Source: Mytilus californianus
Taxonomy: Eukaryota
DNA length: 64,000 bases
Direction of reading: 5' to 3'
NCBI RefSeq assembly: GCF_021869535.1
Contig: NW_026262637.1
Span: 1,736,001-1,800,000, forward strand
The notes under the pieces were generated by a model, which did not search any database, was not told the DNA's origin, and worked only from the letters and a program-made list of their open reading frames with translations. Both the position numbers and the translations under genes were made by a program. Position 1 is the first letter of the stretch, and each line of letters starts with the position of its first letter. Shown here piece after piece: positions 720 to 64,000 of this stretch.

Positions 720-2052
720 TACGGAAGCGTATTAGGGCCATCCTTTTTTTTTTTTTCAAATTGTCGACTTTAATCTTGGAATTATCAACTTTAATCTTGG
801 AATTATCATCATTAATCTTGGAATTATCAACATTAATCTTGGAATTATCAACTTTAATCTTGGAATTTCCAACTTTAATCTTAGAATTATCAAACATAAA
901 TTTTGGAATTATCAACTTTAAACTTGGAATTATCAACATTAATCTTGGAATTATCAACTTTAATCTTGGAAATTCCAACTTTAATCTTCCGACCCTCATT
1001 GGTGCGACACCGATTTTTCCGACTTTCATTAGCCTAGTGACACTCTGATTTGAGAACATCGTGACTTTTGGCTCGCTGGACTCTTGCCTCGGCCAAACAG
1101 TGAACTTCAGTTTGATGTGCTTTACTTTACTTTTTGTTGGTGATTGCGATTGTAAATATCGATGCACATCCGCCTATTCAGCAATATGATATAATAAATG
1201 CATGTACTGCATACATAATAACAAATGGATATTGAAATATTGACATTAACACATGGAAAGGGGGGAGAGGGTAACTTCGATTTTTTTGGTAGGGTGTTCC
1301 ATTTTTGACTAAAAAAATGTACCCATTTTTATATAACATTCACTAATAATATATACAAAGAATGACATTTACTTATATACAATATTTAGATTTTTAAATG
1401 CATAGATTGATTGATTCAAATACATTTTGATGTAACACAATTAGCCATAAATAAGATTTCCAATAACATATTTATATAAGATATGTAGAACATACCCCAA
1501 ATCAATATAAAGTTATGAAAGAACAATGCATATCAATATAGAATGTCATTAAAAAGTAGTGTAATATATATAAAATCTCGCAAAATTATGACCCATATTT
1601 TTGGCATACCACGTATACCCACTAATAGGAAGTTACACCCTTTTCATGGATATTAGGGTACGTGGAGCTATACAAGACTTTAGATACACGTCTTTTTTCT
1701 TTTACATTTTACAAAAAAAATTAGCCGTGAAAATAATTATAAGTAGAAGTATATATTGAGAAACACAATAAACTATGGGCTAGAAGTAAATGTCAGTCAT
1801 TTCCAAGATTATAGTTGGAATTTCCAAGATTAAAGTTTATTCCAAGATATAAGTTGGAATTTCCATGACTAAAGTTAATAATTCTAAGATTAAAGTTGGA
1901 ATTTCCAAGATTAAAGTTGATAATTCCAAGATTAATGTTGATAATTCCAAAATTAAAGTTTATAATTCCAAGATTTAAGTTGATAATTCCAAGATTAAAG
2001 TCGACAATTTGAAAAAAAAAATAAAAAAGGATGGCCCTAATACGCTTTCGTA
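720..2052. mobile_element. Non-autonomous fold-back DNA transposon, IS3EU-like termini, long TIRs containing a 21-bp tandem repeat
   Basis: Left end TACGGAAGCGTATTAGGGCCATCC (720) is the near-perfect reverse complement of GGATGGCCCTAATACGCTTTCGTA (ends 2052). A (ACTTTAATCTTGGAATTATCA)n array at about 767-985 is mirrored at about 1800-2000. CACAAC flanks both ends (714-719, 2053-2058) as a 6-bp TSD. No transposase ORF. Confidence 0.85.
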
Positions 2053-2559
2053 CACAACACTATAACTTAATATTAATGTAGAACAAACTCGCACCAAGAT
2101 ATATAATTAACCTCATCAGGTACATTTTTGATAAAGAAGTATGTATATCATTTAGTTCTTACTTGTTACAATGCACTATTGTATTATTCATTGACAAAAC
2201 GATGAAGTTGTGTTGAATTACTGAACACATACAATGTAAGGAATCTAATATCTGAAATTCTTATATCCTACAATCAGCCATCCATTGTTCAAATAACAGG
2301 TACACAAATAAATTTTTGCTTTATTTGTACTTATACAAATAAAGTCTCCTGTTACCCCGCTTCCAGGTTGAGCAAACGGTAATGTGGATATTTCGTTTTG
2401 CTTAACAGTTTATTTTGGGGTCCTCTTCGCTTTTGGGGTCCTCTTCGCGGTCCGTGTTTAAACTATGTCGATTTCTTTGAAAAAATAGAGACAATGATTT
2501 AGATTTTAACAGCTAAAGTTTAAAGTGTTGGATGTAAATTTCAGGATAAAAACAATATA

Positions 2560-4628: not shown

Positions 4629-5277
4629 GTAAGTACTTGTACTAAATCCTCCAGTGAGAAAAATGAGTTCATTATTAAAATATTCTTAAAAGTTTGATGT
4701 CCATTTTAACATGAATAATTTGACAGATTTATCATAGGAACATAGTAGCTTTCTAGCACATTATTTCCATCTATAGCAAATACTAATATACATGTATTTC
4801 TTTCTCTACTATAGTTGACTGGGGTATAGCAATATAGTTATCTCGTCCGACAGTACATTCCTAAAATGATGCAACCGTTTTAAACTGCAGGTTGTAAAAA
4901 TACTCATGTTACTTTGAATAGATACGTAAAATCCAACACCTTGCGTAGGGTGATTGCCACGCTGTTTGCATGTTAATGAACCTTTGCAACAACTTTCAGA
5001 GGTGATCTTGTGTATTATGTTGCAAGGTAAAATGTTGCTACCTTTTATATTTAAGTTATTTTAAACTTGTTCCCGTCGTGGCGTTGGCGTACCTTATGTT
5101 TCATTTGAAATGTAAATGATATCAAACAGGCACACATGATGCATACAAAAAACTGAGAGTTTCCAGTATAGATATCAACATAAGATATACAATATATCTC
5201 TCTCTCGCACACACACCCACACCATGCACACGCATACACTAATGATTTCTCCTTAAAATAAGTTGTTGTATTTGAAG

Positions 5278-10443: not shown

Positions 10444-11033
10444 ATAGCTATATAACGTGACAATAATTGGGATCTAGCAGCCAAATTGTGAAAACAATAC
10501 ATCGGAGATATAAAATAACATAACTAAGTTAAGTAATCCAAACAAACATACAACAAAATTGAACAAATACGCAAAACACTTTTGTGGTAAATAGTAAATG
10601 TAATCTATTACGGTATTGTTAAACATAATGACATTTAAGTACAATTTGATAAATAGAGATATGCTAAAAAGAAGATAGACTTTAACAATTAATTTGATTT
10701 AAATTTGAAATTGCTTATTGTGAGATAAGAAAGTGTAGAAGCTACATGTCGAGTAAATATGGTAAAATGAAAATAAAATGATGTAATTTAAGAAGTTATA
10801 ATTGATAGTGTAGGTTACAACGCGAAGTACTTGTACAATAATGGTGATTAATACGATGGGCGTGCTTTGTTCATGTATCATTATCATAAAATCCTGGTTG
10901 AACAATTTTAATTTACGTGGATGTCCCTATGTAGCATTATATTTTACATAATTGACAACTTTCTATCTAGGTCCGGTTTTATCGGAACGAATATGGATCT
11001 TATGTAGAAATAGGTGCACTAGAGTACTAATAT

Positions 11034-11990
11034 ATGAATGTAAATAAAGATGTTAATATCAGTGAAAATACACCTACTTCATGTAATTGCAGTAATTCCG
11101 AATACATTTATGGACCCATTTCACATGTTATAACAGGAGATCTTAACATCGTTCAAGACCGAGAGTTAAAATCATTCCTCAGTAAAGGACCTAAATATCG
11201 TCCCCCGTCAATTATTAATTGGAATGAGTGTCGTAATATCATCCACGACTCACTCCATACTTACTGTTTGAAATGGATAAAACGGGAAAAAGCTGACAAA
11301 AAATCTTTGGACTCTTTTTTTAATTCAGTAATGAACATAGTTGATATACGTATTCAACATTTTAAAGAACATTTTACTCTTAAAAATAACCACAAAAAAC
11401 CTATTTCTCGTATCAAACATAAACTAAAAGAACTAGCCAAGGAATTTGTTTTTGTCCCGGCTGATAAAGCTGCTAATAATATTATTATTGTTTGACGTAA
11501 ATTTTACATTGAGGTTCTGAAAAAAGAAATCACCAATTCACCAACATTCCAACTGACTCCATTTTCAAAAAACGACATTTGTAACAAACATAAACTTTTA
11601 GCTACCGCTTTACAAGCAGAACCAAATACAATGAAAGTCCCAACTATGTATTGGCTTCCAGATTTTAGCGGGAGAAATTTATGTATTACTGAAAAATTAT
11701 TACACCAGGGTTTTCGATATCATAATCTAGTCAAAACATTTACTAAATTTTATCATCGGTATAAGGACATCATTCGTAAATATAACTCAACATGCAGACA
11801 TCTTATACGTTCGGGTATTTCACATCCAATCTTTTATGGTAATATTCTTTACAAAGCACAAAAATGTCAGTATTCACCTCAAAAGCTAACAAAACCTTTA
11901 AACAGACTTATTAAGAGGGGATATAGTTACGATACTGTTGTCAGGTGATTAAAAATTGCATATTTTGGCTTTAATATTGATTCACTTATA
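11034..11990 (+). mobile_element. Penelope-like retroelement ORF relic with the RT core deleted
   Basis: HVITGDLNIV, KGPKYR, FVFVPADKAANNII and PTMYWLP are pre-RT motifs of Penelope-like elements. They join directly at 11660/11661 to the C-terminal part (NLCITEKLLHQGFRYHNLVKTFTKFYHRY). In-frame TGA at 11493-11495. Confidence 0.8.
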
Positions 11991-15529: not shown

Positions 15530-16150
15530 TACATCGTAAAGTAGAGAAAAACCTTGTCGATTTTTTGATGTAGAGAAAATCCAGCAGATATTTTATAGTA
15601 GATAAAATCCAGTGGTTATTTTTTATATTAGAGGTTATGTATATATATTAAATCAAAAATCATCAAGTAGATATTTCATGGTCGAGACAATCTTGTTAAT
15701 ATTGTACTGTAATGAACATAATTTAGATATTTTGAAGTAGAGAAAATATAGATAGTTAATAGTAGAGACAATTCTGTACATAGTTTTAAGCCGAAAAAGT
15801 CCTTTTGATATTTCTAATAAACAAAATCCTGCAGATAGTTTATAGTAGCGACAATATTTAGATAGTTTATAGTAGAGAACATCCTGCAAATATTTTAAAG
15901 AAGAGATAATCATGTAGATAATTTATAGTAGAGGGAAATCTGTAGATATTATGAAGAGCATAAAATACTAGATATCTTTATCCTGTGGATACAATTTTTT
16001 ATGTTTGTACTTTGTAGTAGAGATAATCCTGAACATGTTTCATAGTAGAGATAATCATGTTGATATTTTATAGTAAAGAAAATCCTGTAAATATTTTATA
16101 GTAGAGAAAATCAATGAGATAATTCAAAGGTAAGAAATCCTATCGATAGA
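15530..16150 (+). repeat. Degenerate minisatellite, unit about 28-29 bp (ATAGTAGAGAAAATCCTGTAGATATTTT)
   Basis: TAGTAGAGA(A/T)AATC recurs roughly every 29 bp. Confidence 0.7.
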
Positions 16151-24900: not shown

Positions 24901-26132
24901 CTTGACGGGAGGGACTGTGCTTGATTTTTTATATAAGGAGTACTTAATCTTTCAGTCAGTTTGATTGATGCCTGGAGCTGGCATGTCAGTAACTGCTAGT
25001 AGTTCTTTGAAAAAGGTTGAGCTAGTTATAAAACCAGGTTTACCCTACCACTTTCTACATAAGACAATCATTGTACACTGTATTCAAGTCATGAATATGA
25101 CAGTTGATATCCATTCGTTTGATGTGTTTGTTCTTTAGATTTTGCCATTCACTAGGGTTATTCCGTTCGGCTTTTTTGTTATTTTATCATTGTCATTTTG
25201 CTTAGTTTCTTCTGTTACGTATTCTGACATCGGACACGGACTTCATTTTAACTGAGTGTTACTGTGCGTATTGCTTTATTCTACATTGGCTACAAAATAG
25301 GAGGAGAGTTGAGATTTCACAAAACATGTTTAACCCCACCGCATGTTTGCGCCTGTCCGAAGTCAGAAGCCTCTAGCCTTTGTTAGTCTTGTATACTTTT
25401 TCACTTTTAGTTCATTTATATGTTTCGGAGTTAAGTGTGACGTCATTTTCACTAAACTAGTACACATGTTTATGTAGGGACCAGCTGAAGCCCGCCTCCA
25501 AGTGCGGGATTTTTTGTATCTGTGTTGAAGACCAATTGGTGGCATTGGGCTGTTTTCTACTCTTCGATCGGGTTGTTGTCTCTTTCGCACATTCCTAATT
25601 TCCATTCTCAATTTTACATACAGTCATATATGAGTGCAATCCATGTATCACAACATGCAATAAATCAGCATTTAACGACTGACATGACTTGAAACATACC
25701 TTCAACAAAGGCTAAAGATAGCAAGGGAAAATCAAAGATCATAAGTTGAAGAGAAATATTCAAAAACATAGCGGAAAATAACGAAAATACACTACTTTAA
25801 AACTTAAGATTGAGCAACACGTATCAAATCAAAACCATTGGTTTATATCAGGACCTCAGGAAGAATAAAAATATTTTTCTTCTCGTGTGGCTCTCGTCGT
25901 GTAGCTCATGCTTAGCTCAAATTTGGTGTTAATTCTCACAGTTGAGAGTAAAGTATTGGAGAATGGTTACGACAATTGGAACATATCCGTCAAACCAAAA
26001 CATTCACAAAGTTTCATGTTGAACAAAAAAAACATAGAAAAGTACTCGTTATGTTTTATCTATAAAATTTATAAATATTTGGCGAATAAGATGAAATGGT
26101 ATCTACAGTAAAAATATCAATTCTTATTTCAG

Positions 26133-26835
26133 GGAAATGGAGGCAAACGTTGATATTGAAAAACAGTTCCTAAGACTGATTATGTTTTGCCATAAGATAT
26201 CCTTACCAGTTGTTAGAACATTTTTTGTAAGTGGTGTTCTTGGATGCCCTGATTATAACAACAACATTAGTACTTTTCTTGAACATCACAAACATGAAAT
26301 ATTTCATCTTGTTGGAGATTATAAGTGTTGTCAATGCACCAATCTGCCTTTATTTCAAACAAGTTCACTTAAATTTCGCCTTGGAAAGGATCAATTCAAG
26401 AAATTATATGAAATTGGGCTTTCACAACCCGGTCATTTTATGAAAGGATCCGGAGGACGAGTTATTCAGCAATGTCTGTGCTGTGTTACAGTTAGAAAAG
26501 AAACAGATCCAAAGACATATGATATATCCTTGTTGTTCGCCATTTTATATAACTGTGTTCAATTATCCGATAACAGAAGATTATGGTTAGATACAATTAG
26601 AAAGGGGAGAAATAGATTATGTCATCTTAATGATATAAACGACCTTTCGGAAAATGAGCTTCAAACATTGTGGGGAAACTTAGAATGTTCTGTTGTTCGG
26701 TTAGCTGAAGAGATCCATTCACTTCCATATTATAAAGAATGCATAGAGCAACACGTTGACACCTTCAAATATACAGACTACAACAGAGAGGCTATAGTTC
26801 CGATTATAGAATCAATGAGATCTGAAATAAACAAT
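26133..26835 (+). CDS. HEPN-TIR-like gene, exon encoding a DZIP3/hRUL138-like HEPN domain (ATG at 26137)
   Basis: 233-codon open frame. FLEHHKHEIFHL..CCQC..H..CLCC, DISLLFAIL, then RKGRNRLCH (R-x4-H HEPN motif, 26608-26625) and LWGNLE. Acceptor TTATTTCAG, donor AAT|GTAAGT (phase 0). Confidence 0.85.
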
Positions 26836-27558
26836 GTAAGTTGTTACAAATAATATTATATCAAAAATTAGAACTTAACAGAATTCACATATTTTTTCAC
26901 GAGTCTTTGGCGTAATGCCAATTCATGATCTAATCTGCGAAATATATATATATATATAAATATGAAAAAGGTGAAAAATATAATAGAAATAAAAAATAAA
27001 CACAAAATCATGTTGTAACGTTTATTTTAAAGCGAGAATGAAGAACTTGCCAAAGACAATAACCGATATAATATTTTATTTGGAGATCAGTTTTTTAAGG
27101 TGCAATTTTGTGTTTTGAACGGTGATAAATATACATTGTTTTTATATTTGAGTTTATTCTTTTGTAGATTTAGTAAAAAGTAAAATAACGTAAATACCAA
27201 ACTCCGAGGAAAATTAAAAACGGAAAGTCCCTAATCAAATGACAAAATCTAAAGCTCAAACAAACAAGCTAATGGATAACAACTGTCATTCCTGACTTGG
27301 TACAGGCATTAACATATGTGATATGGTCCTCGAAGTTTCTATTGTTGAGACATTAACTCTTTGTAGTAATTTTTAGTGGAGGGTTTATTATTTTTATTAT
27401 TATCAGTCTTCGTGTTGTCCAAACTTTAGTTTTCTATGTTTTGTTTTGTGTTCTGTTGTGAGCATGTTGGTCTTTTCATTTTTAGTCATGACGTTGTCAG
27501 TTTATTTTCGACTTATAATTTTGAATGATGCTTTGATATTGTTTTTTTTTTTTTTTTT

Positions 27559-37153: not shown

Positions 37154-38289
37154 TTTTTTTTTTTTATAATTCTTTATTTTTTTTTTCAACTCATACAATA
37201 ACTATAAGCATTTTTTCTATCAAAGAAGAATACAATACATGTTTATTTATTTTGACCTGTCAGTGTCAGCGCTTCTATTAACATCCCCCTTCACATACAA
37301 AAAAAAACTAAAAAAACAACAAAAAAAACTAAACAAACAAACAAACAAACAAACAAAAAATCCAAAAAAAAAAAATTAGCTTATATTCATATATGATTGA
37401 ATTGATATTAAAAGATTATTATTATTATTGATGCAACATAGTTATTCTATTCGTACATGTATTCATAAAGAAAATTATATATATAGGGACATACATTTGT
37501 ATTTTGTTGTTATTTTCTTTTCCCGACAATATCTGAAAATCATATAAAAAACAGTATTTTAACTCCTATTATCATAACATAGTAACCCACATTTAATTCT
37601 TACATACATATATATAATATCTATAGGATGCAAACTAACCACTGTCCAATTGTGATGTGCATCCAATTGTGTTACACATTTATTTTCAGTTAAGTATGAG
37701 TTATCTTTCTTGTATCATAAAATTATTTGTTGAAATGGTTCCTATTTTTTTTTCTTTTTTTTCACCTATTGCAGGAGAAATGTGAAAGGTGGAAGATAGT
37801 TTTTCAATAATATAATAATTTTTCAATTTCTTTAGTGCAATCTTAACACAAGGTAACAGTGAGTTCAATCTACAAAAATAAATATAGTACTTCAAGAGAA
37901 CAGTGAAAAAATTTCCATAGATATCTATAATATCTGATCCCAAGAGGATGTTTTGTTTTGATCATTTGTGCATAAAATTCTGTGCAGAATTTTGTATTGA
38001 AAACTGATCAATTTATTACTCAAAGAACACTTGAAGGGATGCATATAGAAAAGATCCCAATGACCTATTTCCATAAGCAAAATTTCTTTCTATTTATTTT
38101 GTTATTTTATGGGGTTTTCATGTAGACACAAATAATTTATAAAAATATAGGCATGATTTCTGATTTGTTTTCAAATAGTCTAAATTATCGCAAGTGATGT
38201 TGATTTTCTTTTCACAGTTTTTGATGTGGTCCTTCCAACTACTTGGGATCATATGATATATACCATAGAATTAAAGAAAATTTGTATTA
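37154..38289 (-). mobile_element. L1/Tx1-clade LINE, 3' part with polyadenylation signal and poly-A tail
   Basis: Minus strand reads FYGIYHMIPSSWKDHIK and VLLKYYIYFCRLNSLLP..LKNYYIIEK, then AATAAAGAATTAT(A)12 ending at 37154. TSD AATCCTAAACGAA at 37139-37151 and 45626-45638. Confidence 0.8.
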
Positions 38290-39849
38290 TTATTGATGCG
38301 CAATGATTAGAAACACGGTATTGGCAGTATTTGGCCACAGCTTTATTATAAAATTATAAACACATATAACTAGGTAAACAGTTAAGATATATATATGTAT
38401 AGTAAATAGATATTTAAATGAACGTAGTCACCTTTCATATTGGCAAACTACGACACGATAACTAGATATTAACTAAATAGATAAATAATTAAGATATATA
38501 ATTTATATAGTAAATAGATAATTAATTAAACGTAGTCACCTTTCATATTGGCAGACTACAAAAAGATAACTAGATAACTAATTATTTACAATAAATGAAG
38601 TATCCAATTAATAGAATCCTGGGAAACAGAGATTTGTTAATTTTTGTGTGGTGGTCCTGGGATACAGAGACCCACAATATCAAATGTTTTGGATGCTAAA
38701 TGAAATATGACGCCAAATAAGCATATTTAAAGGAAACGCAGCGAAATGTGCCCGTAACTAAATATCACTACGGAATGTTCATATAAACCGGCACATTCAA
38801 AAATTGTTCTTCCATGATACATGTACGAACGAAGTCACAGATTACTGTATTTATAAATGTCTAAGAATGAATAGTCTTAAAACACAACACACGTTGAGAT
38901 GGCATAGCTATACTAGCAAACAACGTACAAGTACACTGTAGATAATAATCTGATGTTCCACATATACTGCTTAGTTGACGGTTCATCCAAACTGTTGTAC
39001 AAGGATCATCCTGAAAAATATAGTAAAGACACAGCAAAAATATATTCATGATATATTATGCTAGGTAGTATAAGTCATAGTGGTGGGTGGGTGGGTCTTT
39101 AAATCACCAAATAATATTTCGTCTGTTTCTTTCAAATGTCGGAATGAAAAAGATCGCGTACGCAGTCATATTGCGCATTGACAAACATACATCTGATAGC
39201 CTACATTTAATAGAGGTGAAACAGCTAATCACACAAGTAATCTATGCTTACACTAATTACCGAATTTATGCTGAATCATAAATTCTATCATTATTGATAA
39301 ACAATGATTAGAAACACGGTATTGGCAGTATTTGGCCACAGCTTTATTATAAAATTATAAACACATATAACTAGGTAAACAGTTAAGATATATATATGTA
39401 TAATAAATAGATATTTGAATGAACGTAGTCACCTTTCATATTGGCAAACTACGACACGATAACTAGCTAACTAAATAGATAAATAATTAAGATATATATA
39501 TAGTAAATACATAATTAATTAAACGTAGTCACCTTTCATATTGGCAGACTACAAAAAGATAACTAGATAGATAACTAGATAACTAATTATTTACAATAAA
39601 TGAATCCTGGGAAACAGAGATTCGTAAATTTTTGTGTGGTGGTCCTGGGATACAGAGACACACAGTATCAAATGTTTTGGATGCTAAATGAAATATGACG
39701 CCAAATGACGAATATTTAAAGGAAACGCAGCGAAATGTGCCAAATTGACCAAGACAGTCATAAATGACTGTCAGGTCAACCTCCATTAAAAGCGGATAGA
39801 GCTGCGTAGAAGCTGTGAACCAAATACAATATAAAGGACTCATATATTT

Positions 39850-40420
39850 AAACCCTAACAATAACTGAATTCTAATGAATATCCTGCAATTTCTTAATAC
39901 ACATTGTGGAAAGTATGTGGTGTGTAGACAAGAAAGGCTTCTAGCGCGCCTTGAAATGTGGTAGCAAAATGTATTACCAATATGAGTCAAATGTTCACCA
40001 TCTTGGCATTTAAATATGGAATTGGGAGATACATCAGAGTATCGTATGTATTGATTGCAATATCCCCCTTGACGAATGATCAAACTAGCCAGCCAGCTGA
40101 TTATCATCTTTCTGGTTCTAATCATTGTTTCTGTTACTACGGAATAATGTCATGTTTATTTGGCAAACTTAAGACCACAACAATCTGATATTCAGTAAAA
40201 GAACAGAAACTATATTCACAGTTTTTTCCCACATCTTATATGTTATACTCCTGTCGTATTGTCAACTCAATCAATTCCGCATATCTGCATATGTGTAAAA
40301 TGAGAGATATTGAAAACCGAATTCCAGTTTAATCTTGTACAAGATGAATGACACCTGGTTTATTCCGAGCTTGAATAAATTCGTTTTCTACAAAGGTGGA
40401 AACCAAACTCTAATGGCTAC
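39850..40420 (-). pseudogene. SGNH/GDSL-hydrolase-like relic downstream of YR
   Basis: FIQARNKPG..HL, RTRKMI.SWLAS.II.QGG..IRYSD, DGEHLTHIGN (39973-40002; block V DxxH) and FQGALEAFL after a frameshift. This explains ORF-track entry 39583..40125. Confidence 0.65.
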
Positions 40421-40524
40421 TGGCGAACCTGCTAATTTTACATAACGGCTAGTATTACTAATGTAATTGCAAGTTCTAAACATAAAATTAGAAAAAATTC
40501 AAACAGTTATACCCATTGTTGTAT

Positions 40525-42260
40525 TTGAATATATGAACGAAATGACATAGACTTCCATCTACACATTGCCTGAGGTTAAGAATCAGTTCAACCATTTATG
40601 GCAGCTCTGTAGCAGCGCCTTTCCTGAAGAAACGAGAACTATGTATCCCTTGACTTAATCCGAAAATATTCAGTGACTATTTTAGGACTCCTAAACTGAT
40701 ATCTAGAGAAAGGAGTTCTATCAAAACAAGCATTCTGAAAGTAATTAGATATAAGAAGATGTGGTATGAGTGCCAATGAGACAACTCTCCATCCAAGTCA
40801 AATTTTAAAAAAGTAAGGTCAAAGTACGGTCTTCGCAATACATAGTCACAACCGGTTAATAATTCATTGTACTGGAACCAGATATTAACTTGATCTATAA
40901 CTTTATCATGGTGTAAACTATAGAACAAATATCAAGTCAATATATTCAAGCATGACGAGAAAAAAAAATGTGGAAAACTGATTATTAAGTAAATTTTTAT
41001 TAAGTCCAGGGACCATTACTCTGCACAAAATTACCAAACCGGAATAAAACTCGAAACTTGAGCAATTACTTGTCATGATAAAACTATATACCAATTATTA
41101 AAGCAATATCTTCAAGCATGACAACAACAAAAAATTGAGGAAAACTGATAATGTGTGTGAATTTATAGAGTATTAAGCCCAAGGACCAAAACTCGGCACA
41201 AAAATCAGCAGACTGGAACACAATATGAACTTGATATGTAACTTGACATGATAAAACTATGTACAAATTATCAAATCAATATCTTCAAGCAATAAAAAAA
41301 AAAATAATTGCGGAAAACTGATTATTTGGGGGAATTTTCTTAGTCCAAGGACCATAACTTTGAACAAAATCATTAGACTGGAACACAATTTGAACTTAAT
41401 CTGTAACTTGTCATGATAAAACTATGTACCAATTATCAAATCGATATCTTCAAGTATGACGAAAAAATATGCGGAAAACTGATTATTTGAGTGCATTTTC
41501 TCAGGCCAAGGACCATAACTTTGCACAGAAGCATCATACTGGAACGCAATTCGAACTTGGTCTGTAACTTGTCATGATAAATCTATATACCAATTATCAA
41601 ATCAATATATTCAAGCATGACGAAAACATGTGCGGACAAATGATTATTTTAATGAATTTTCTTAATCCAAGGACCATAATTTGCACAAAATCATCAGACT
41701 GGAACACAATTCGAACCTGATCTGTAACTTGTCACGATAAAACTATATACCAATTATCAAATCAACGTCTTCAAGTATGACGAAAAAATGTGCGGAAAAC
41801 TAATTATTTGTGTGTATTTGACCAAAACTCTGCACAAAATCATCAGACCGGAACAACATTCATACTTGATCTGTAACTTGTCATGATAAAACAATACACC
41901 AAATATCAAATCGATATCTTCAAGCACGAAAACAAAAATGTGGAAGACTGATTTGCCGGATTGACAGGTGGACAGACAGAAAGACGAACATAGTGAGAAC
42001 CTTAAATCCACTTAAACTCAATCGGTAGGGGACTTATAACAAAACAATTGACCAGCGACAGGTTTAAACTTGTAAATAGTTAGTTATTTCGTTTAAGCAA
42101 AAATAGGATAAGCATCTCTAGGCCGCTCATTAATAACGTGTGTGGTTCCTTCGAAGCACTGGTCAGTCTTAGATAAAATTAAATGGAGTTCAATACTATA
42201 TATATTTTTCTTGATATCTGGCGAGATGACAATATTATTTGTAAATCATTTCATTTGTTA
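40525..42260 (-). pseudogene. Tyrosine recombinase relic, interrupted by two insertions
   Basis: ELHLILSKTDQCFEG (SKTDQ at 42159-42173) and GQLFC (42039-42053); after the inserts, FQYNELL, GLSQGIHSSRFFRKGAAT (FRKGAAT at 40608-40628), then a frameshift to AAING*TDS*PQAMCRWKSMSFRSYIQ. Matches the DIRS/Ngaro YR consensus HSFRIGAAT..GRWKS..Y. Confidence 0.8.
40880..42038 (+). mobile_element. Tandem-repeat-carrying non-autonomous element (HINE/Helentron-like), unit about 120 bp
   Basis: About 9 copies of AAAATCATCAGACTGGAACACAATTCGAACTTGATCTGTAACTTGTCATGATAAAACTATATACCAATTATCAAATC..; ends with GACAGACAGA microsatellite and a terminal ATCGGTAGGGGACTTAT motif. Inserted in the YR relic. Confidence 0.7.
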
Positions 42261-42639
42261 GAATAATTTTTTTTTTATTAGTATTAATCATTAGAGTAGA
42301 GATCGTTTGTACACTATTTTCGATTGTAAGTTACTTTTACAAACTTGATCACCAAAAATTTTGATCTTTCATAAGATTATCGTCTGCAAATCGTCGACAT
42401 GAATTTACAATTTCAGAGAGTTAACGGTTTCCTTACATTTACTATATATCATTTCTAAGGTCAAGAAAAGTTCAAATCGTAATCGGCATCGCAGGTTGTA
42501 GATAATTACGTTAGGAATTTATTATCTCAGACTGTAACGTATCTAATTAGAAAGATTTTGTATTCGAAAAAGAAACATCGAAATGTGTGTTAAATAATGT
42601 GAACAGTATCAGGTATATATTGTAAACATTAAACGTAGA

Positions 42640-43240
42640 TAACAGAATATTCGTTTTAATGACAGCCAAATCGATTGAGAATATAATAATACTGCTATAT
42701 CAACATAGTCGTCGAATGCCAAGTCCCAAACCGTCGAACGTTATATCGAGCTTAATTCCGCTGCAAAAGTATCTCAGCAACATTATATTTATACTCAAGT
42801 TCAATTTCTTTATTTGTTATTTTTGTATGAGGCAAAACTGGTTTAATAACAAGTTTCCACTGTTCATATGACACTTTTTGCTTGTCATTTTCAATTATAG
42901 AGTTGTTCCTAAGTAGAACAAAAATGACATACTCGCCCGTTTGATTTTTTGATTTTATTTTAAGTACTGACTAACATCATAATCAAGACTAGGAGAGTAA
43001 CTAGTTGTTTGCGTGAGATTTGAATGATCTTTACCGATTGCATTACCTGGTCGATTTACTACATCAAAAGAACAACTATCCTCCTGAAGTTGGGGGATCG
43101 TTAGATGCTGATACTGAACCTGGTTAAAGTTGTGTTTCCTCTTGTCTTGATGCAGCTTCTAATGTTGCAGTGGCTTTTCATCTTGTTGATGACCTTCTTG
43201 TATTCATCTTAGTGCCAAACAAGTAAAAGATTACATTGAA
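42640..43240 (-). pseudogene. gag-like relic of the Ngaro element
   Basis: GEYVIFVLLRNN..KQKVSYEQWKLVIKP..KITNKE (GEYV at about 42926-42937) resembles the DIRS/Ngaro gag pattern GEYVDL..LL..KI. Many stops. Confidence 0.5.
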
Positions 43241-43617
43241 CAACCAAATCAGAATATTGCTTTGTACTATAAATAAAGAATTTGCAATTAGCGACCTTTA
43301 AAAGTTCATTGACGCCTATAACCAACCAGTTTAACATTCATCTGTCAGGAATGAAATATTTGTGTATACGTGAAGTGATACCGTTGCACAAATGTCGGTC
43401 AGCTTCCGATAACAATAAAATATTCTGGGTTACACGAGCGAGGAGGCTGATTAAACAATCTGTACCGAATGACGATGCTGTTAAAATAGCGCAAGTGAGG
43501 TGATATGTGCTAATTTTATATTATAAAATCCGTCAAAGTAATTAAACGGACACAGTGGTAATTTAACAGAATACTAGACGGTATTTAAAACACATGTACT
43601 ATATATAACTATCTATA

Positions 43618-43760
43618 ATGATGATAATAACATCTAGAATGATGATAATAACATCTAGAATGATGATAATAACATCTAGAATGACGATAATAACATCTAG
43701 AATGATGATAAAAACATTTATAATGATAGTAATAACATCTATACTGATAATAAGACAGCT
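43618..43760 (+). repeat. 21-bp tandem repeat (ATGATGATAATAACATCTAGA)n
   Basis: Four near-perfect units and about three degenerate ones. Confidence 0.9.
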
Positions 43761-44411
43761 AACAAATTGTTGCTATTGCATATATAATGATGCTTACAGT
43801 TAAGGTTATGGTGATGCAAGAGATAAAAAATAATTATGTTGAACATGCGTAACCTTCAATTAGCATCAAGCTGTGACCGCCGGAGTGAAATGTGCAGATC
43901 GGTGTCAAGCGTTGAAATGAAATGTAATAAAACGTGTATATCTCTATGTAACAGTACATAAAAAAACATTAATAGCTCAATACTTATACATAAACACCGA
44001 TCGCTACCTCCGGATAGTAAAACTATTATAACATGTAAAAATAAGCAAAATAAGCAATAAATTGAAATGAATTTGCTTTAAAACACTGATATTCCATTAA
44101 ATATCCCACAATTGTTGCGGGAGGCTAACTCCAATTATACCACCTGAGTTCCAATTGTAGAAAAGTGGTACAAAACCTGCACAATGTGGATCCTATATCT
44201 TTGTAATCACCAAAATAATTTTCTTTAAATCACCAAATAATATTCCGTCTGTTTCTTTCAAATGTCGGAATGAAAAAGATCGCGTGCGTAGTCATATTGC
44301 GCATTGACAAACATACATCTGATAGCCTACATTTAATAGAGGTGAAACAGCTAATAACACAAGTAATCTATGCTTACACTAATAACCGAATTTATGCTAA
44401 ATCATAAATAC

Positions 44412-45625
44412 TATTAAGATCGTATGTTTCTTTAAATTGATTAAAGAGAGAAATTCATTGTTCTCATTCAGTAAATCATTGACAAAACATATTCCTGCCT
44501 CACACCATTTTTCATAGAAAATAGTTTTATTATCAATTTTTAAATGTGTATTAAACCAAAAAGGTTGGCCCATAAAGTAATTTTGGTCATGGGCAGCATT
44601 CCTCAGTTTAGCCCAATTTAAAAGGATGTCCTTCCAAAATCTATTAAAATATATTGAAATTTATTTAATACTATCCCTATTCATCATCCAAACTTTATCT
44701 GCACCATATTTTCCATATTAATCATTGAAAAGAATTTTCCAAGGAGAATGATTGAAAGGGTATAATAATTTATAGATCCATGCCATTTTGAGTGCATAAC
44801 AGAATGATTCAATATGAGGCATCTTTAGCCCACCAGTATCATATGATCCACTTAGAACATTTCTTTTGATTTTATCTGGTTTACCATTCCATAGAAACTT
44901 TAAAAAAAATTTCAATTTTCTTAAAATTTTCAAAAGAGGGATTTGAGTTAATGACTGAATGAGAATTGGCAATGCTAAAGACTTGATGACTGTAATTTTT
45001 CCTAGGTATGAAAGATCTTGGTAAATCCAAGTATTTAGTAATGCCTTTATCTTTTCAATTTTCTCTTCAAAAATATAGGCAGTCTTGTCGACAGCAAAAA
45101 GATCATAGTTTATACCTTAGAGTTTAAATTTCCCTGTCTGATTCCAGTTTAATCTTTCTACTTGGTGAAATATTTCCTTTGAATGTGCTTTTGACCCAAT
45201 CCAAATGGCTTCTGTTTTTCTAAGTTTGCTCGTAAACCAAAACACTCAGAGAACCTTTCTAAAATATATAGAGATTGTTCTAACGACTTTTCATCATCAT
45301 TTAAAGTTAAGGTTGAGTCATCTGCATATTGACTAAGCAAATATTCAGAGTTGTCCATCTTAATACAATTAATATCTGCATTATTTTTCATTGCTGCACT
45401 GTTTCAGTTCCAAAGCTAGTACAAAAAGGTAAGGGGATAAAGTATTCCCTTGACGAACCACTCTGTCTATCTTAAAGAAACTAGATCAATGACCATTATT
45501 TATGATACAACTTTCGATATTGAAATATAAAGATTTTACCCAATTACAGAAATCAGGACCAAAACCTAAGAATTCAAGTGTTTTCTTTATGAATGACCAT
45601 TCAAGAATATCAAATGCTTTTTCAA
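44412..45625 (-). mobile_element. L1/Tx1-clade LINE, 5'-truncated RT part
   Basis: DFEKAFD at the truncation point (about 45609-45629), RQGNTLSPYLF, SQYADD (YADD at 45317-45328), FLWNGKPDKIKR..GGLKMP..ALKMAWI, QPFWFN. Frameshifts and stops present. Confidence 0.9.
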
Positions 45626-46633
45626 AATCCTAAACGAATCTTGGACAGTGGTGTAACAGCAAAACATATGATTAAACTATAAAAACAGTTGAAAGGTTTT
45701 AACTCATCAGATCGACACAAAGCAGAAAAAACAAGTAGCAAAAACACAGACCGGACGTGGCAGGGTATTCACACAACATCAAAAGCTGTGTGCATTTGTG
45801 AGAATGCTCACACTGAAGCTAGTTCAAAGCCAATAAGAACTAATAAAACATCATGAATCTAAGACTAAAATATCAATCAGTACACATCCAACATACAGTG
45901 AATTTAGTATAAAGACGTTTTTAACAGTCAGATAAAAAGATGACCTTTTGCAATGGCAAATTACAGGTATCAACAGATTGTAGAACCGTGAATGTGCATA
46001 TGTATATAACAATAATATTTAGTTTGCTTTTAATTTATTGATAACCAAATCAATATGTAAATCAATAAAAACTGTTTCAAATATCTAATCACAATGTTGA
46101 ATTGGTAACCTCACAAAATATGTTTATCTAAAGGAAAGATAAGTTTACACGTATCTTCTTTAAGTTTACGGGGTCTGTAAACAGCATGTCTGTAAAAATA
46201 AGAATGTGCTATCCCGTTTGAAATAACTATGTGTTGATCATTAATACACCAACTTCTTTTTAATCATTTAGAGGACAGGATGCACCACACGGAGAGTAAA
46301 AAACAAATACGTCGAAAAGAACCTCGAATAATTCTGCCGACGAAAAGACATACGACAAAAAATATTGTCAGGAAATTTCTTATTGGGCAATGAGTTTCTA
46401 CCAAAGAAAGAGGATACTCCAGATAAGCGTTTTTGATTAAGGTTAATCTGGAAAAGCGATTCGGATGCACGATAGTATTATTTTCATTAACCTCATTTAT
46501 TAGATTCTAATTAATATATCCAAAATAATTGGTCTTTGGTCTAGCGAAGCTGTAATAAACATACGTTTTATGTGTTATATATTTAACTATGTAAAGTACC
46601 TTTCCTTAGAACCTTATATGTATCTAGTTTCAG

Positions 46634-53079: not shown

Positions 53080-53760
53080 AAGAATCTATGACAAACAAGA
53101 TGATTTTAATTTTGAAATTATCAATTTCCTCAACTTAGTAGCAATATAACAACTTGACCTGCGTATGGGATATATATTTCCCTAATTATTCGGTATTCAA
53201 GAGCTTAAAGCTGCTACTCAGACTTTGTAAAACGTCACCAGTATCTGAGTAGAAAGTTAATGAACCAGGGGTATGTCAAAGATCGTCTCGTCCTTTTTCA
53301 TAGGAAGGAACCAAGACCTTACTGATAAATATTCCGTATCAACTTCACAAAAAAATACACGATGGACTTGAAGTATAGATTTTAGACACTGACGTTGTTT
53401 ATAATCTTAATAACGTGTTATAGTATTCTTTTGTTTGTCTTTATGCATATTACTTTTACTGTTTATTCTGTTTTGGTGATATTCATTTGACGTTGCTCTG
53501 TACGTATACATCCAGTCATTGTGTTATTGTGCTATGGTAAATTTGTGTATTCTTGTCTTTCATTTTTGCTAATGTACTTTGTTTATATGCCTTGTTGTGT
53601 TTCTTTGTTACATATGACGTGGCTCTGTACTTATACATCCCGTCATTGTGTTATTGTGCTATGGTAGATTTTTGTATTCCTGTCTTTCGTTTTTACTAAT
53701 GTGCTTTGTCTATATGCCTTTTTTATGATTCTTTGTTACATAATTGTTTCTTTTTATAGT
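53080..53760 (+). mobile_element. Another Penelope-like C-terminal fragment with a duplicated ~125-bp 3' unit
   Basis: IYDKQDDFNFEIINFP..AYGIYIS. GTCATTGTGTTATTGTGCTATGGTA repeats at about 53515 and 53641. Confidence 0.6.
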
Positions 53761-54825: not shown

Positions 54826-55287
54826 CTAAAGTAGGAATACATGTTTGTTAAGATTTCTAGGAAGAAACAGAAATCGAGCAACGTCATGATTTACACTCAT
54901 AGAATTTTGACTTGCATTTGTAATGATGTATTTTGAAATATACGAAATCACTCTAAATAAATATGAATTTAGGTGTTTGACGCGCTTTTCTTCCTTAACT
55001 TCCTTCAGGAACGATCCACGACAAAAGAATGAAAACCCATGATGTATATGTACCTTAGCAAATAACAAACAACAACAAAAACGCAGAAACTGATCATTTT
55101 CATTGAAAAAAGAACAATGACACAAAATGAATTTTAAAAAACCGGGGTAACAAAGTAAACAGTTTAAAAACAGACGGGGGTCTAATAAAAGGCTAAACCT
55201 TATATTACAGCTCATTTTAACATTGCCGTTACTACCTTCTACACGCGTATGTTTAAATATATATTTGAGGATACAAGCCCTATGCAT
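54826..55287 (-). pseudogene. Antisense intronic ORF, Cys-rich and hydrophobic; possible membrane-protein relic
   Basis: 153-codon ORF in non-repetitive sequence. Protein-like residues continue past the TAG (KKFAYAISCKLQIIVSFV) until a repeat insertion. Product not recognised. Confidence 0.3.
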
Positions 55288-55699
55288 CTTTTGATTGGTG
55301 TTTATTATATTTTCAAATTAGTCATGTTCATAAAATTGTTTACTGACAACGTTAATTGGCATTCATCATTTTACAAATAATCAAAGATGACAAGCTGATA
55401 GTTTTGTACACTGGACGCACGTTTCGTCTACACGAGACTCTTCGAATTCGGTGGCGCTCGTTTAAAATTAGTTGGAAGGCCAACCACGGTGTTGTGAAGC
55501 TATAAAAACCTAAAATAATCTACATCTTGGTGTAGAAACACCTTAGTGTTTCGAACACACTGAATTGTTTGAAAAGCTAACGAACAGTGCTCCAATTGAG
55601 TTTTCTGTACAGTACGACATTTCTAAACGAACTCGATAAAATCTGAAAAATAACTGAAATTATGTTTGTTGTTCAGACGTTTCAGATCATGTTTAGCTC

Positions 55700-56462
55700 A
55701 AAAAAGTAGGGCGAAAGATACCCGAGGGACATTCATACTCATAGATCGAAGAAGGGTAAGCAGATCCTGCTCCACATGTGGCACCCGTCTTGTTGCTCAA
55801 GTTATTACAAACCCGGTTAATAGTCTAATTCGGTAAATCACATTCGTGAAATGGGAACGGGATTGTAGTTATGACATAAGGAATATATCCGATATCATCT
55901 GTGAAACGGATATTCCATGACGGTCAACCAACCCGTGATGGCGTCCGTAAAATTTACGAAGGGATGATTTCAACTTCAACATTTGGAACTCTTTGTTTAA
56001 TAGCTTCCTTGTGAGCAGCAACCCTCTATCAAGGACATCATGATAGGAAATACAAGCCCGATAATATCGTATCAATTGGGAGATATATGCTCCGTATGCA
56101 GGCGCTGCTGGAATTTTGCTACATAGAAATGGAAAGTTCACAATTGGGCAGCTGAAATCATCTCTTTTGTCGTAAAGTATTGTTTTCAAGCGACCCTCAT
56201 TGTCAATATCTAGATGTAAGTCAAGATATGAGGCAGACTTAACTGTATCTGTTGTATCCTTTACCCCTAGTTCGATGGGATAGATGCGTTCAACATAATC
56301 ACCAAATTTTGAATTATTTAGTGAGAGAACATCATCTATGTAGCGGACACTAAAGTTTAAGGATATTGCTAACTTCTTTTCTTTGTTCCTAAAAGTACCT
56401 GTATGGAGTCAGCCTCATAAGAATACAGAACAAGTCGGCAAGAAGAGGGGCACAATTGTGAC
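55700..56462 (-). mobile_element. Penelope-like RT 3' half, 5'-truncated
   Basis: CAPLLADLFLYSYEAD, RYIDD (56331-56342), SYLDLHLDIDNEGRLKTILYDKRDDFSCPIVNFPFL, RKFYGRHH. Confidence 0.85.
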
Positions 56463-60023: not shown

Positions 60024-61882
60024 GTAACATATAGACAATACTTATTAATAAGTTTGCAAGAAATATATCATGCATTAACATGTCAATCGCACATTTGTTT
60101 GGGTTTCATTTTTAAGATTTTTATGACATTTGAACTTAGCCTGACATAGATGGAAAATACAATGGTTCCAAATGTAATTTTGATAACAAATTTTTACAAA
60201 AATTCTGAATAAAAGAGATATTAGGACAACGATTTCAATAATCTAAATCTATGACTTTCATGTTTTTTTCTAACCGAAACCGTTATCCCACTTCATTTGC
60301 ACTACTATCATATAATGTGTGTTGCTACTAATAACCAAAGTTGACTGTTAAATCCATATGCCGATCATTCATACAACAGCCATTGGTTTAGAGGGGGGAA
60401 AAAAGACTCATCAAAGATGCCAGGCTTATAATTTGATACGCCAGACGTGCATTTCGTATAAAACATGGAATCGTCTAAAAAATGATATCGTCTTCACAAT
60501 TGGCAACGACCAAGTTGTGGCTAAAAAAAATCTCCGAAAATAAAGAGGCTTTTCATTACGTTTGCCAGATGCTCGTTTTATCACAAATAACTCAACAGTG
60601 ACGCTCAAATCAAAAAATTTGAAAAGTGAAATTAAGTACGAAGTTTAAGAAGAATTAAGGGCCCAAATTCATATTTAATTTGCCAAAGACGGCTCAGGTC
60701 ATTTGACATTCATCTATGTATCTAAAATAAAAAGTAGTAAACAAATATTCAATAATTAGGTTATAACTCCATATATAACACAGACGAAAAAACGTTCAAT
60801 ATTCCATCTTAGGTGAATCAGAGGTGTAAGAGAAAAAAAAAGTCTCTATTCGACCAATTATTGAATTTATCAAGGCAAAAAAAAAAGGACAACCTCTAAG
60901 CAAATAAGTTAAAAGAGTCTTTACAACGACACATAGCAAAGCGTTTCTTCAGGTGCTTTTCTTGATTTATCTTAATCAGGAACACTCAAAGCCAAATATT
61001 TGAAAGCCAAGGAAGCATAAATACCAAAACACGTAAAGAAAATAATGACCAAAAGGACATCTAAAAATCAGGCTGCAAAACAAAATACATAGTTCATATA
61101 TTCACAGCATACACAGCATGTATTTTAGGAAGACCAGTTTGACCAAATTTATAAACAAATACTACATTTACAACACAATACTACAAATTTAAACATTTGG
61201 AACAATGTGACTTTAGCATATCTATGGTAGCTGTTTTTCACTTGTTATATTCATTTATAGCGTTTGATTTTGTCAGTTTATGTAGACTTCCCCTTTTTGA
61301 AATCGATTTGGAGTATATTTGCTATACTTTTTACTAGTATAATGTATAGTATGATTTGCAACTTTAGAAACGGTCACCTGCGATGTTTTGAATATATATC
61401 TTTCTTCCTTTGTATATATGGATATAAACGTTTAAGTATTTTGACTCACATATGTTTTACTTTAAAGAGACTTGATAAATTGTTTACCTGTTGCACACAC
61501 TGATATCTTAAAATATGGTAATGTAGGATGATTTTGTCTGTTCTAAATGGTTTACGAATATCTACGATTTCTTCTCTTCACGTCGAACAATGACTAAATT
61601 TCACAGTGAAGCCAACCTCTACCATGCGAGCACTATTTCATTAAGAGTCAATTTTCGGAGATTATCATTGAAGATAATAAAAATAAGATCAGTTGCGTGC
61701 TAACAGTTTTTGAGATACACAATCAAAATGTAAGAATGTTCTTTGCTAGTTAAAATCTAGATTGACATTCTTCAAAATGGAAATTGATTCAGACATTTGT
61801 TTTCACTGTACACGAATACATATCTATATTTTCTTCTTTTGTGTTATTGTAGTACTAATGGTGTATAGTATGAAGATTAAAG

Positions 61883-62326
61883 ATAATGCATTGATTCCAC
61901 CTTCTAAACTGCCATTTTTTCGTACCAATGATGATGACAGCAAAGGGATAACGATAACGAATCTCGATCATACAAATATGGTACTACTGGGATGTTTCGA
62001 TGATGTAGAGTGGGTTGAATCAATATTAACTGTTTGTGAAAGTCTTACACCAATTTGTCAGATACAGAACACAAAAATGACAAAAAAGCTTCTCAACCAA
62101 GTGAAACATATTGTATTTGTTGCTTCTATGTCATCACAAGAATCTTATAATCTAAAACCATTGCTGGAATGTCTCAGTGAGTCTAAACTGTTACCAAAAA
62201 AATTCGTTACAATAAAAAGGGATCACATTATGCTTCCAGATGTGTTGAAAAAATCAAAACAAATCAGTATTAGTGTTGTAGAGAAAGAATGGGTTTCTAA
62301 CGTGATGGATGCTATAGCTATGACAG
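61883..62326 (+). CDS. HEPN-TIR-like gene exon, degenerate TIR-like domain
   Basis: MVLLGCFDDVEWVESIL..E, IVFVAS..S, FVTIK..I.LPDVLK and EWVSNVMDAI follow the TIR beta/alpha pattern. Donor CAG|GTACGT (phase 1). Phase-1 acceptors exist at 61853 and 61883. The next exon was not found. Confidence 0.65.
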
Positions 62327-64000
62327 GTACGTTCTTTGTTCAACTGTATTTTAAAGTATCATTTTAAGATAAGTTAAATGCTTATTTTTTACAATAATTT
62401 ATTGCAAACAAAACGGTTTCATAACCTTTTCTTTGTGAGATACATCCAGATTTACATACTGTACTGGGAAGTTTTCAATTGAACCTTATTATGATCATTA
62501 TTAGGAACTTATGTTGAAATGTGATAATATGTTTCTTGTGATCAGCTAGAATGACAGCTGTAACATTCCAAAATTGCGATAACATTTTCAATGAAAAACA
62601 CTTTGTGAGCACGCCCAGGTACCCTTTGCCCCCACATTGTCACTGAGGCAAAACAAAACTCACCAGATTCTTAGGTTCAAAGACTCAAGACCTAACAAAA
62701 TTTATCTGATTTAATATTTTTGTAAGGTTTCATAGAAGCAGCGATGACCATTTTTTGCATTTATAGAAAAAGAAGGGATATTGGGTATCCACACATTGAC
62801 ATAAATTAGTACATGGACAGCAAAAAACCCACACAATAAGCAAAGGAACAGCGCTTGTATTGCTGTTCTTCATTTTAAAGTCACAATGAGGCCTTCAACA
62901 CGACTGGTGACCTAAGCATTGACAACAACTCGTCTCTACGAAATGTGTTGCCAATTGCACGTAAATCATAAACTGGAAAAGCGACTTTAAAATACTTAAG
63001 GTTAGTTAAATATCATGCGAGACGATGATGCATATAGAGATGTAGATGCTCCTTCCAATAGAATTAATTCTGTGAAGTTGTTCATACAATAATATATAAT
63101 AAGAATTAATGGTTCTTTGAACGGTCGTGTTACTTTTTTCATCGGTGAGCATATTGGTGTGAAGCACTCGTCATACATTCATTGCAAAAGTGTTATTGAA
63201 ACCAGGAACGAAAAGCCTCAATCAATATAGTTGTTGTGTGTATTATACATGATATTAATTGCTTGAAAAAGTATTTTGTTGTTGAGAATTCCCTTCTACT
63301 AAATATGCACTCCAACGACAGTTATAAAAGAGGATATTCTAAACAGTTATCATTCGGTTTTAGTTTCTTTTTTCAAATTTGAAACAAAGATGAAAAACTC
63401 AAATGTTCTTCACTCGGCTAAATACTCCACAAAACCTCTTCCTTTCAAAATTAGTAAAATCTACATGTATTTCATCAGCAATCAAAACCGGGTTTAAAAG
63501 CTACTGTATAACTACCTGCTCTAACGCAAGGGAGAGTTAACCAGACGTGGATACTAAAAAATCATATGATCTGCTAGAGTATATACAACGAATGCAAATT
63601 TTAAAAACAATTTACACATCAAAATATAAACAATCTACTTAAATCGGGACTGTTGCGATAAAAGTCATAAGCACAAATTGAAATTGGGGACTACCAATGT
63701 TTTAAAAAAAGAGAAAAGATACGAAAAATCCTACAAAAAGGGTAATAAATCCTGGTGCTCTGGAAGGGTGAGCAGTTCTTCCTTACATTTGACATTTGGG
63801 TCATTCTTTTCTACCTGATTTACAATTCTGTGTTTCCGTAAATCCCGGTATGACTTGGCACCCATAGAAATAAGAACAAATATGTAGTGTTTTCCTATAA
63901 TAGAAGATCAACTAAAGCTATTGTAAAGAATTATTATGACGCGTAAATATCCCTTTGATTAGATTTATTGGCCGTGTCCCTTTCGTGGGTTGTTCGCCGT

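What the first reader, a model, noticed from the sequence alone, without database searches (positions are those of the whole stretch)
38290..44411. Ngaro-type tyrosine-recombinase retroelement hidden from the ORF track
Seen on the minus strand: A1(44411-44222), gag relic, YR relic, SGNH relic, B1(39741-39291), A2(39285-39096), a 343-bp spacer, B2(38752-38290). Established: A1..B1-A2-B2 split direct repeats with gag/RT/YR define Ngaro/PAT-like elements. Unusual here: no RT/RNase H between gag (about 42640) and YR (about 42260), and a unique spacer between A2 and B2.
Basis: partly seen in the sequence, partly recalled or inferred. Interest (0 to 1): 0.7.

Follow-up and report, generated by a model that had tools for sequence, protein, structure and literature searches.

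The report
Broken Ngaro retrotransposon inside a LINE
This is a dead copy of a known kind of jumping gene in a mussel-like genome; it has lost its copying enzyme, and its fresh ends suggest it last moved by borrowing enzymes from a working relative.

Summary
The split direct repeats are real, at exactly the stated coordinates (A1/A2 7 mismatches in 190 nt; B1/B2 about 91% identical with indels; 343-nt spacer). Pfam misses the relics, but Mytilus proteins of an intact RT/RNase H-YR-SGNH family match them: YR C-terminal half (66% identity, split by a 1310-nt satellite-bearing insertion), SGNH (55%), and the ORF1 start. RT/RNase H and also the YR N-terminal half are undetectable, so about 2.2 kb is lost and the YR is dead: this is no RT-free mobile element. 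The gag core could not be confirmed. The element appears to split a LINE at a 5-nt TAATA core shared by all three junctions, as YR integration predicts. The spacer starts with a C-rich tract also seen in two intact relatives, so it is probably a family trait. The one interesting point: the genes have decayed about 16-23% (7-11 stops against about 1 expected), while the repeats diverged about 1.7% per copy, which suggests the copy was already dead when it last moved, using helper enzymes. Gene conversion remains a rival. Verdict: defective member of a known superfamily; modest interest.

The parts
44412..44416 (-). 5-nt core TAATA at the 5' junction
   Evidence: same core at 38289-38285, one mismatch (TGATA) at 39290-39286
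44222..44411 (-). Repeat A1 (190 nt)
   Evidence: 7 mismatches to A2, no indels
43208..44221 (-). 5' non-coding region, with a 21-nt tandem array at 43605-43753
   Evidence: RT profile at null level here
43080..43207 (-). Start of ORF1 (putative gag), ATG at 43207
   Evidence: matches N-terminal stretches of Mytilus gene models P0010 (66 bits, shuffle max 21.5) and P0015 (31 bits, max 23); that it is gag is inferred from position and from similar starts of ORF1 in L001/L002
42219..43079 (-). Unassigned 860 nt; simplest reading is the rest of gag (ATG to YR junction is 330 codons; ORF1 in L001/L002 is about 370/315 aa from the first Met)
   Evidence: no same-family gag available; gag profile, YR N-half and RT tests not significant
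42036..42218 (-). YR relic, part 1 (P0015 residues 255-313, SKTDQ motif)
   Evidence: phmmer of 1.84 billion proteins E 7e-07 to P0001
40726..42035 (-). 1310-nt insertion in the YR: 6.6 copies of a 161-nt unit (40887-41953) plus about 100 nt of a repeat dispersed in the window
40513..40725 (-). YR relic, part 2 (residues 314-385; the His of H-x-x-R is changed, Arg, Trp and Tyr kept)
   Evidence: 166 bits, shuffle max 14.5
39901..40426 (-). SGNH/GDSL hydrolase relic, with a 26-codon deletion, 7-8 frameshifts and 4-6 stops
   Evidence: aligned to P0005 residues 497-693 (Pfam Lipase_GDSL_2 E 1.5e-05, below the curated cut-off)
39291..39741 (-). Repeat B1, with an internal ~100-nt duplication and AATAAA at 39348
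39286..39290 (-). Core at the internal B1/A2 junction (TGATA), the copy of the circle junction
39096..39285 (-). Repeat A2
38753..39095 (-). 343-nt unique spacer starting with a C-rich tract (39095-39080)
   Evidence: no unusual fold (z -0.33)
38290..38752 (-). Repeat B2, AATAAA at 38347
38285..38289 (-). 5-nt core TAATA at the 3' junction
44417..45630 (-). Host LINE relic, 5' flank (RT domain and downstream ORF2)
   Evidence: Pfam RVT_1 E 1.4e-09; 6 minimal reading breaks against 17.4 in shuffles, 0 of 300 as open
37930..38284 (-). Probable continuation of the same LINE, 3' flank
   Evidence: same codon phase across the core and L1/Tx1-like motifs recalled from memory; no tool confirmed it

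Best explanation
A defective copy of a Ngaro-superfamily tyrosine-recombinase retrotransposon from a family that is intact elsewhere in Mytilus (identity about 0.93 likely). Shown: repeats, YR and SGNH relics, loss of RT/RNase H and of the YR N-terminal half (about 2.2 kb), shared 5-nt junction core. From the published model for this order (untested for Ngaro): an RNA copy is reverse-transcribed, its ends are rebuilt from the internal B1-A2 junction, and the YR recombines the junction with a matching short target, here TAATA in a LINE. Inferred (about 0.6): the genes were already ruined when this copy last moved, so it was copied and inserted by RT, YR and probably Gag from an intact relative; reverse transcription reset the A and B pairs, which have since diverged 1.7% per copy. 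The copy encodes nothing functional today.
For: Family match and colinearity. No RT/RH: 0 of 121 fetched proteins hit the element with their RT/RH part at E<=0.05; 114-sequence profile best iE 2.7 in the whole window; a decayed 300-nt piece of even a distant RT was detected in 90% of 30 trials. YR N-half at null level. Clock: 21 substitutions in 633 repeat bases, 1.7% per copy (95% range 1.0-2.5%), against ML decay 0.16-0.23 over 290 aligned codons, while the reference proteins are 94-95% identical to each other. Stops: 11 (codon-aware) or 7 (BLOSUM) against 0.96 expected, P 6e-09 or 6e-05; frameshifts 11-12 against 2.4 expected, P 4e-05. Both repeat pairs give the same age (3.2% and 3.4%) though 5.1 kb and 1.0 kb apart, and A mismatches are spread out. 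The 5' LINE flank, which must predate the insertion, has 6 minimal breaks; simulated decay of 0.17 gives 11.4, with 6 of 300 as low.
Against: One copy only; no sister copy with the same deletion could be sought. The 3' LINE flank is as broken as shuffled DNA (4 against 4.2), and both flanks together are only weakly younger than the Ngaro genes (22 of 300 at d 0.17, 62 of 300 at d 0.13); a like-for-like count of minimal breaks gave P 0.33. The 3' flank is called LINE from recalled motifs only. Gene conversion is predicted in 25% of plant LTR pairs (PMC7251063, abstract). The internal core has one mismatch. A borderline RT-like stretch at 42486-42357 (1-13 of 100 shuffles as good with P0003, 0-5 with P0005; not significant family-wide) would mean several deletions, not one. 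Part of the amino-acid distance may be subfamily divergence.
Confidence: 0.6

Rival explanations
1. An ordinary autonomous Ngaro inserted long ago and decayed in place; the deletion came later, and gene conversion kept A1/A2 and B1/B2 alike.
For: Needs no helper. Conversion between terminal repeats is reported in plants (PMC7251063, abstract). The 3' flank is no more open than shuffled DNA. The last ~100 nt of B1/B2 before the end are identical.
Against: Two short pairs at different distances would have to be reset to the same age. The 5' LINE flank fits decay of 0.02-0.08, not 0.17-0.2.
Confidence: 0.3
2. A new RT-free element that moves as DNA with its own YR (Crypton-like), keeping Ngaro repeats.
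For: No RT; YR C-terminal motifs present; 5-nt core fits YR recombination.
Against: The YR lacks its N-terminal half including the box I Arg, has lost the His of H-x-x-R and carries stops, frameshifts and an insertion. Relatives with 92-95% identical YR carry RT/RNase H. DNA-only movement would not reset the repeat pairs.
Confidence: 0.03
3. Two unrelated local duplications or two nested fragments that mimic the A1-B1-A2-B2 order.
For: The window is rich in repeats; B holds internal duplications.
Against: A and B abut at a shared core, ORF1-YR-SGNH lie in family order between A1 and B1, the flanks are in phase across the core, and B ends resemble those of relatives L001/L002 by eye.
Confidence: 0.03

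Closest known systems
Ngaro-like YR retrotransposons (order DIRS), e.g. Xenopus DIRS-53_XT (PMC9210276, first fifth of text and passages)
   Same: A1-ORFs-B1-A2-B2; YR followed by an SGNH ORF; no methyltransferase; similar repeat sizes (236 and 152 bp there)
   Different: This copy lacks RT/RNase H and half the YR, all frames are broken, and 343 nt lie between A2 and B2
Unnamed Mytilus family represented by gene models P0001, P0004, P0005, P0010 (M. coruscus) and P0015 (M. edulis)
   Same: Same YR, SGNH and ORF1-start sequences, 54-70% identity to the relics
   Different: They keep RT/RNase H and the whole YR; their DNA and repeats were not available
TOC1 of Chlamydomonas, non-autonomous version of the YR retroelement TOC3 (PMC5613634, passage)
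   Same: A YR retroelement moved by a helper; recalled, not confirmed in print here (one search found 0 papers): split repeats with a short unique stretch between A2 and B2
   Different: PAT-like group, active and multi-copy; here one decayed copy
Cafeteria Ngaro type 2b (PMC8547959, section 11) and SIRE of VIPER (PMC6681497, passages)
   Same: Deletion derivatives of elements with split direct repeats
   Different: Type 2b loses ORF1 and keeps RT and YR; SIRE is only the A2-B2 region
Crypton DNA transposons (PMC13465315, passages)
   Same: YR, no RT, 4-6 bp direct repeats at the ends
   Different: No long split repeats, gag or SGNH; different YR lineage for CryptonA; here the YR is a fragment

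Membership tests
Ngaro superfamily | Split direct repeats A1 ... B1-A2-B2, internal pair downstream of YR | tested here: met
Ngaro superfamily | Tyrosine recombinase ORF | tested here: met
   C-terminal half as a relic; relatives hit Pfam Phage_integrase above cut-off; the relic itself does not
Ngaro superfamily | RT/RNase H ORF in this copy (needed for an autonomous member) | tested here: not met
   so filed as a defective derivative, not an autonomous member
Ngaro superfamily | RT/RNase H in the parent family, upstream of YR | tested here: met
   P0001, P0003, P0005; profile A1 matches solved RT/RNase H chains, best E 1e-07
Ngaro superfamily | gag-like ORF1 | tested here: inconclusive
   ORF1 start matched; core at null level with distant gags
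Ngaro superfamily | No methyltransferase after RT/RNase H | tested here: met
   P0003 shows only RVT_1 at E<=0.1 and ends after the RNase H region; P0005 runs from RNase H into YR. Tested on the parent family, by absence of a Pfam hit
Ngaro superfamily | SGNH hydrolase ORF after YR (some members) | tested here: met
   intact relative L002 has the same order
Ngaro superfamily | RT or YR groups with named Ngaro references in a tree | not testable with these tools
   no labelled Ngaro, PAT or DIRS reference sequences were available
PAT-like | Split direct repeats plus a methyltransferase domain | tested here: not met
   no methyltransferase in the parent ORF2; definition from PMC4157794 and PMC7192593, passages
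DIRS-like | Inverted terminal repeats and internal complementary region | tested here: not met
   element repeats are direct; no inverted pair between its ends
Crypton | Complete YR as the mobilising gene, no long terminal repeats | tested here: not met
   YR is half deleted; long split repeats present
Non-autonomous YR retroelement family (TOC1-like) | Several dispersed copies sharing the same defects | not testable with these tools
   only this 64-kb window of the genome was available

The most novel reading that the evidence does not exclude
This is one copy of a non-autonomous Ngaro lineage in mussels that kept retrotransposing, over many rounds, with helper RT and YR after its own genes had decayed by 15-20%. 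What it kept would then mark the cis-acting signals of Ngaro replication: A, B, the 5-nt core, the poly(A) signal, and a C-rich tract directly after A2 (G-rich on the cDNA) that is also seen in distant intact relatives and may set the end of the A strand transfer.
Probability: 0.4. Interest if true: 0.5.

Novelty: new member of a known kind. Interest (0 to 1): 0.3.

Why it matters
Ngaro elements are known in bivalves (PMC10294476, passage) and broken copies are common, so the element itself is ordinary. If the helper reading holds, it would be an animal Ngaro counterpart of TOC1 and a natural deletion map of what these poorly understood elements need in cis; among the papers read here, experiments on replication were found only for DIRS-1 (PMC7192593, passages). 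The interrupted LINE also gives a clean view of the YR target core.

Tried and rejected
Pfam on six frames of 38201-46500 and on 10 relic pieces: no YR, SGNH or gag hit. Word-based homologue searches with the YR and SGNH relics: 0 of 11 and 0 of 4 candidates. Rfam on the window: 0. By-eye readings of 43130-42219 as gag zinc finger, YR N-half or RT thumb were mutually incompatible and none passed a test. Spacer as a diverged part of A or B or of the flanks: no alignment above shuffles; no special fold. Strand-specific G-to-A editing: 17 G>A against 12 C>T and 12 G>T among 87 single-step changes, no clear signature. Independent confirmation of the 3' flank as LINE failed or did not complete. The insertion as a Helentron-type HINE element (PMC7492417, passages) fits its build and a GTCY-like microsatellite near 41990-41965, but no exact terminal inverted pair was found; left as a lead. 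TOC1 repeat sizes: 0 papers. Ngaro plus C-rich: 1 paper listed, not read. PMC8498967 and PMC3783388 (passages) held nothing on non-autonomous Ngaro. Cluster members of P0001/P0002 could not be looked up, and metagenome and viral contig collections stayed unchecked. No supplements were read; Repbase-derived tables in PMC9210276 may give A2-B2 spacing.
Full report
Observation. Self-comparison of the window gives two repeat pairs on the minus strand. A1 44411-44222 and A2 39285-39096 differ at 7 of 190 bases without indels. B1 39741-39291 and B2 38752-38290 are 91.4% identical over 475 columns, with 15 substitutions in 445 aligned bases and 5 indels. The 343 nt between A2 and B2 have no other copy in the window and do not align above shuffles to four neighbouring regions tested.

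Finding the family. Pfam found no YR, SGNH or gag in six frames or in 10 pieces, and two word-based searches found nothing. phmmer with 42500-42021 against 1.84 billion proteins gave 2 hits (E 7e-07 and 4e-06). P0001 carries RVT_1 and Phage_integrase and is named as a Mytilus coruscus protein. A search with it listed the best 120 of 429 relatives, among them a full RT/RNase H ORF (P0003, 93% identical), a M. edulis YR (P0015) and an RNase H-YR-SGNH model (P0005). The host is therefore probably a Mytilus-like mussel (inference).

Anatomy. A frameshift-aware alignment puts P0015 residues 255-384 at 42218-42036 and 40725-40516, split between adjacent residues by one 1310-nt insertion; 84 of 127 residues are identical, with 5 frameshifts (one is the insertion) and 3 stops. 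SGNH lies at 40426-39901, 92 of 166 identical, with 7 frameshifts, 4 stops and a 26-codon deletion. The ORF1 start at 43207 matches P0010 and P0015 (66 and 31 bits against shuffle maxima of 21.5 and 23, 30 shuffles each). The insertion holds 6.6 copies of a 161-nt unit and a piece of a dispersed repeat with 11 other matches in the window.

What is missing. RT/RNase H: none of 121 fetched proteins hit the element with that part; a profile of 114 of them (7 chimeric or non-RT models left out) gave a best iE of 2.7 anywhere in the window; in simulation a decayed 300-nt piece of a distant RT was found in 90% of 30 trials and a 150-nt piece in 57%. One 130-nt stretch at 42486-42357 is colinear with P0003 residues 286-329, but 1-13 of 100 shuffles did as well (0-5 with P0005) and it fails a family-wide null; a small remnant is not excluded. 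The YR N-terminal half, with the SAM-like domain and the box I Arg (motif name recalled), is at null level with the family protein (14 bits, 67 of 100 shuffles as good) and with a 9-sequence profile. ORF2 plus that half is about 2.2 kb. The 860 nt at 43079-42219 stay unassigned: a profile of 7 distant gags was at null level, and L001 and L002 gags alone scored 49 and 42 against shuffle maxima of 51 and 44. The ATG-to-junction distance of 330 codons fits a whole gag, so one deletion from the end of gag into the YR is the simplest reading (inference).

Insertion site. The 5' flank is a LINE relic (RVT_1 E 1.4e-09). Its frame ends in the core, and the 3' flank starts in the same codon phase with motifs that I recall from L1/Tx1-type ORF2; no tool confirmed that flank. 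A short sequence shared by both ends and the internal junction is what YR integration of a circle junction predicts; PMC7192593 (passages) describes this for trinucleotides in DIRS elements, and also reports that DIRS-1 cDNA is mostly linear and the circle junction was not amplified.

The spacer. A scan of GTDB with the RT alignment returned 11 loci, apparently animal DNA in binned genomes (inference). L002 is an intact ORF1-RT/RH-YR-SGNH element. In L001 a 119-nt repeat, whose second copy precedes ORF1, is followed at its first copy directly by CCCGCCACCATCCCC; in L003 a CCCACCCACCC tract lies 117 nt into the 339-nt gap between two identical 379-nt repeats downstream of the YR. In the window the pattern occurs once in 128 kb, at the base after A2. 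The tract was in 2 of 11 loci; in the other 9 no split repeats were found, and L002 and L006 end soon after the last ORF. Neither L001 nor L003 holds all four repeats, so spacer length there is not measured. The spacer is thus probably inherited. I recall a unique stretch at the same place in TOC1, but one search found no paper for it.

The clock. The repeats differ at 21 of 633 bases, 1.7% per copy (1.0-2.5%). Stops number 11 or 7, by aligner, against 0.96 expected at 2% decay; frameshifts 11-12 against 2.4. Stops and frameshifts cannot come from a lineage under selection, so either the genes were dead before the last reverse transcription or the repeats were converted later. The host LINE is a second clock: its 5' flank needs 6 breaks against 17.4 in shuffles, whereas the Ngaro relics need 8 against about 9.8; simulated decay of 0.17 leaves 6 or fewer in 6 of 300 runs. 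Against this, the 3' flank shows no such signal, both flanks together give 22 of 300, and the direct comparison of minimal breaks has P 0.33. A hand count along recalled LINE motifs (13 breaks in about 525 codons, frames) against 22 in 290 gives P 0.001, but it compares unlike methods. I put movement in trans at about 0.6 and decay in place with conversion at about 0.3.

Comparison. The definitions come from PMC9210276 (first fifth and passages), PMC4157794, PMC3783388, PMC7192593 and PMC13465315 (passages): Ngaro has split direct repeats, no methyltransferase and sometimes an SGNH ORF. The copy meets these, fails the RT test and so is a defective derivative; no tree against named references was possible. 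Non-autonomous or deleted YR retroelements are known: TOC1 (PMC5613634), SIRE (PMC6681497), Cafeteria type 2b (PMC8547959). Searches (top 20 listings each, seen as titles and abstract starts) showed no report of an RT-less Ngaro lineage in molluscs, which is weak evidence, since Repbase and most subscription papers are not covered.

Verdict. A real, well-delimited, dead Ngaro-type copy; new member of a known kind. Interest 0.3, for the clean junctions, the conserved C-rich tract and the sign of helper-driven movement.

Noticed in passing
window 724-2060: Foldback-like element: long inverted arms made of 21-nt tandem units (759-988 and 1801-2009, up to 95% complementary) with matching outer ends.
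   Followed up: no
window 26095-26853 (+): 252-codon open frame with a weak HEPN_DZIP3 match (E 9e-04, below cut-off); possibly a host exon.
   Followed up: partly
window 40726-42035: Insertion built like a Helentron-type non-autonomous element: short left module with microsatellite, 161-nt tandem array, right module; followed by a second dispersed repeat.
   Followed up: partly
window 6554, 6990, 10408, 14781, 18840, 19935, 36850, 40753, 52419 and others: A dispersed repeat family with about a dozen copies on both strands; several further dispersed families (D4, D6, D13, D18, D20).
   Followed up: no
window 15540-16141 and 53484-53742: Decayed 28-nt tandem array (about 14 copies) and a 127-nt tandem duplication.
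   Followed up: no
L001-L011: Bacterial MAG records in GTDB hold contigs with intact eukaryote-type YR retrotransposons, probably host contamination; L003, L005 and L007 are large perfect palindromes, likely assembly artefacts.
   Followed up: partly
window 39348-39310, L001 786-815, L002 about 4835-4865: The 3' end of B looks conserved by eye across distant relatives: poly(A) signal followed by a similar ~20-nt motif.
   Followed up: partly
window 11031-11948, 54826-55317, 55869-56408, 61750-62367: Open frames of 150-205 codons with no Pfam match above cut-off.
   Followed up: partly
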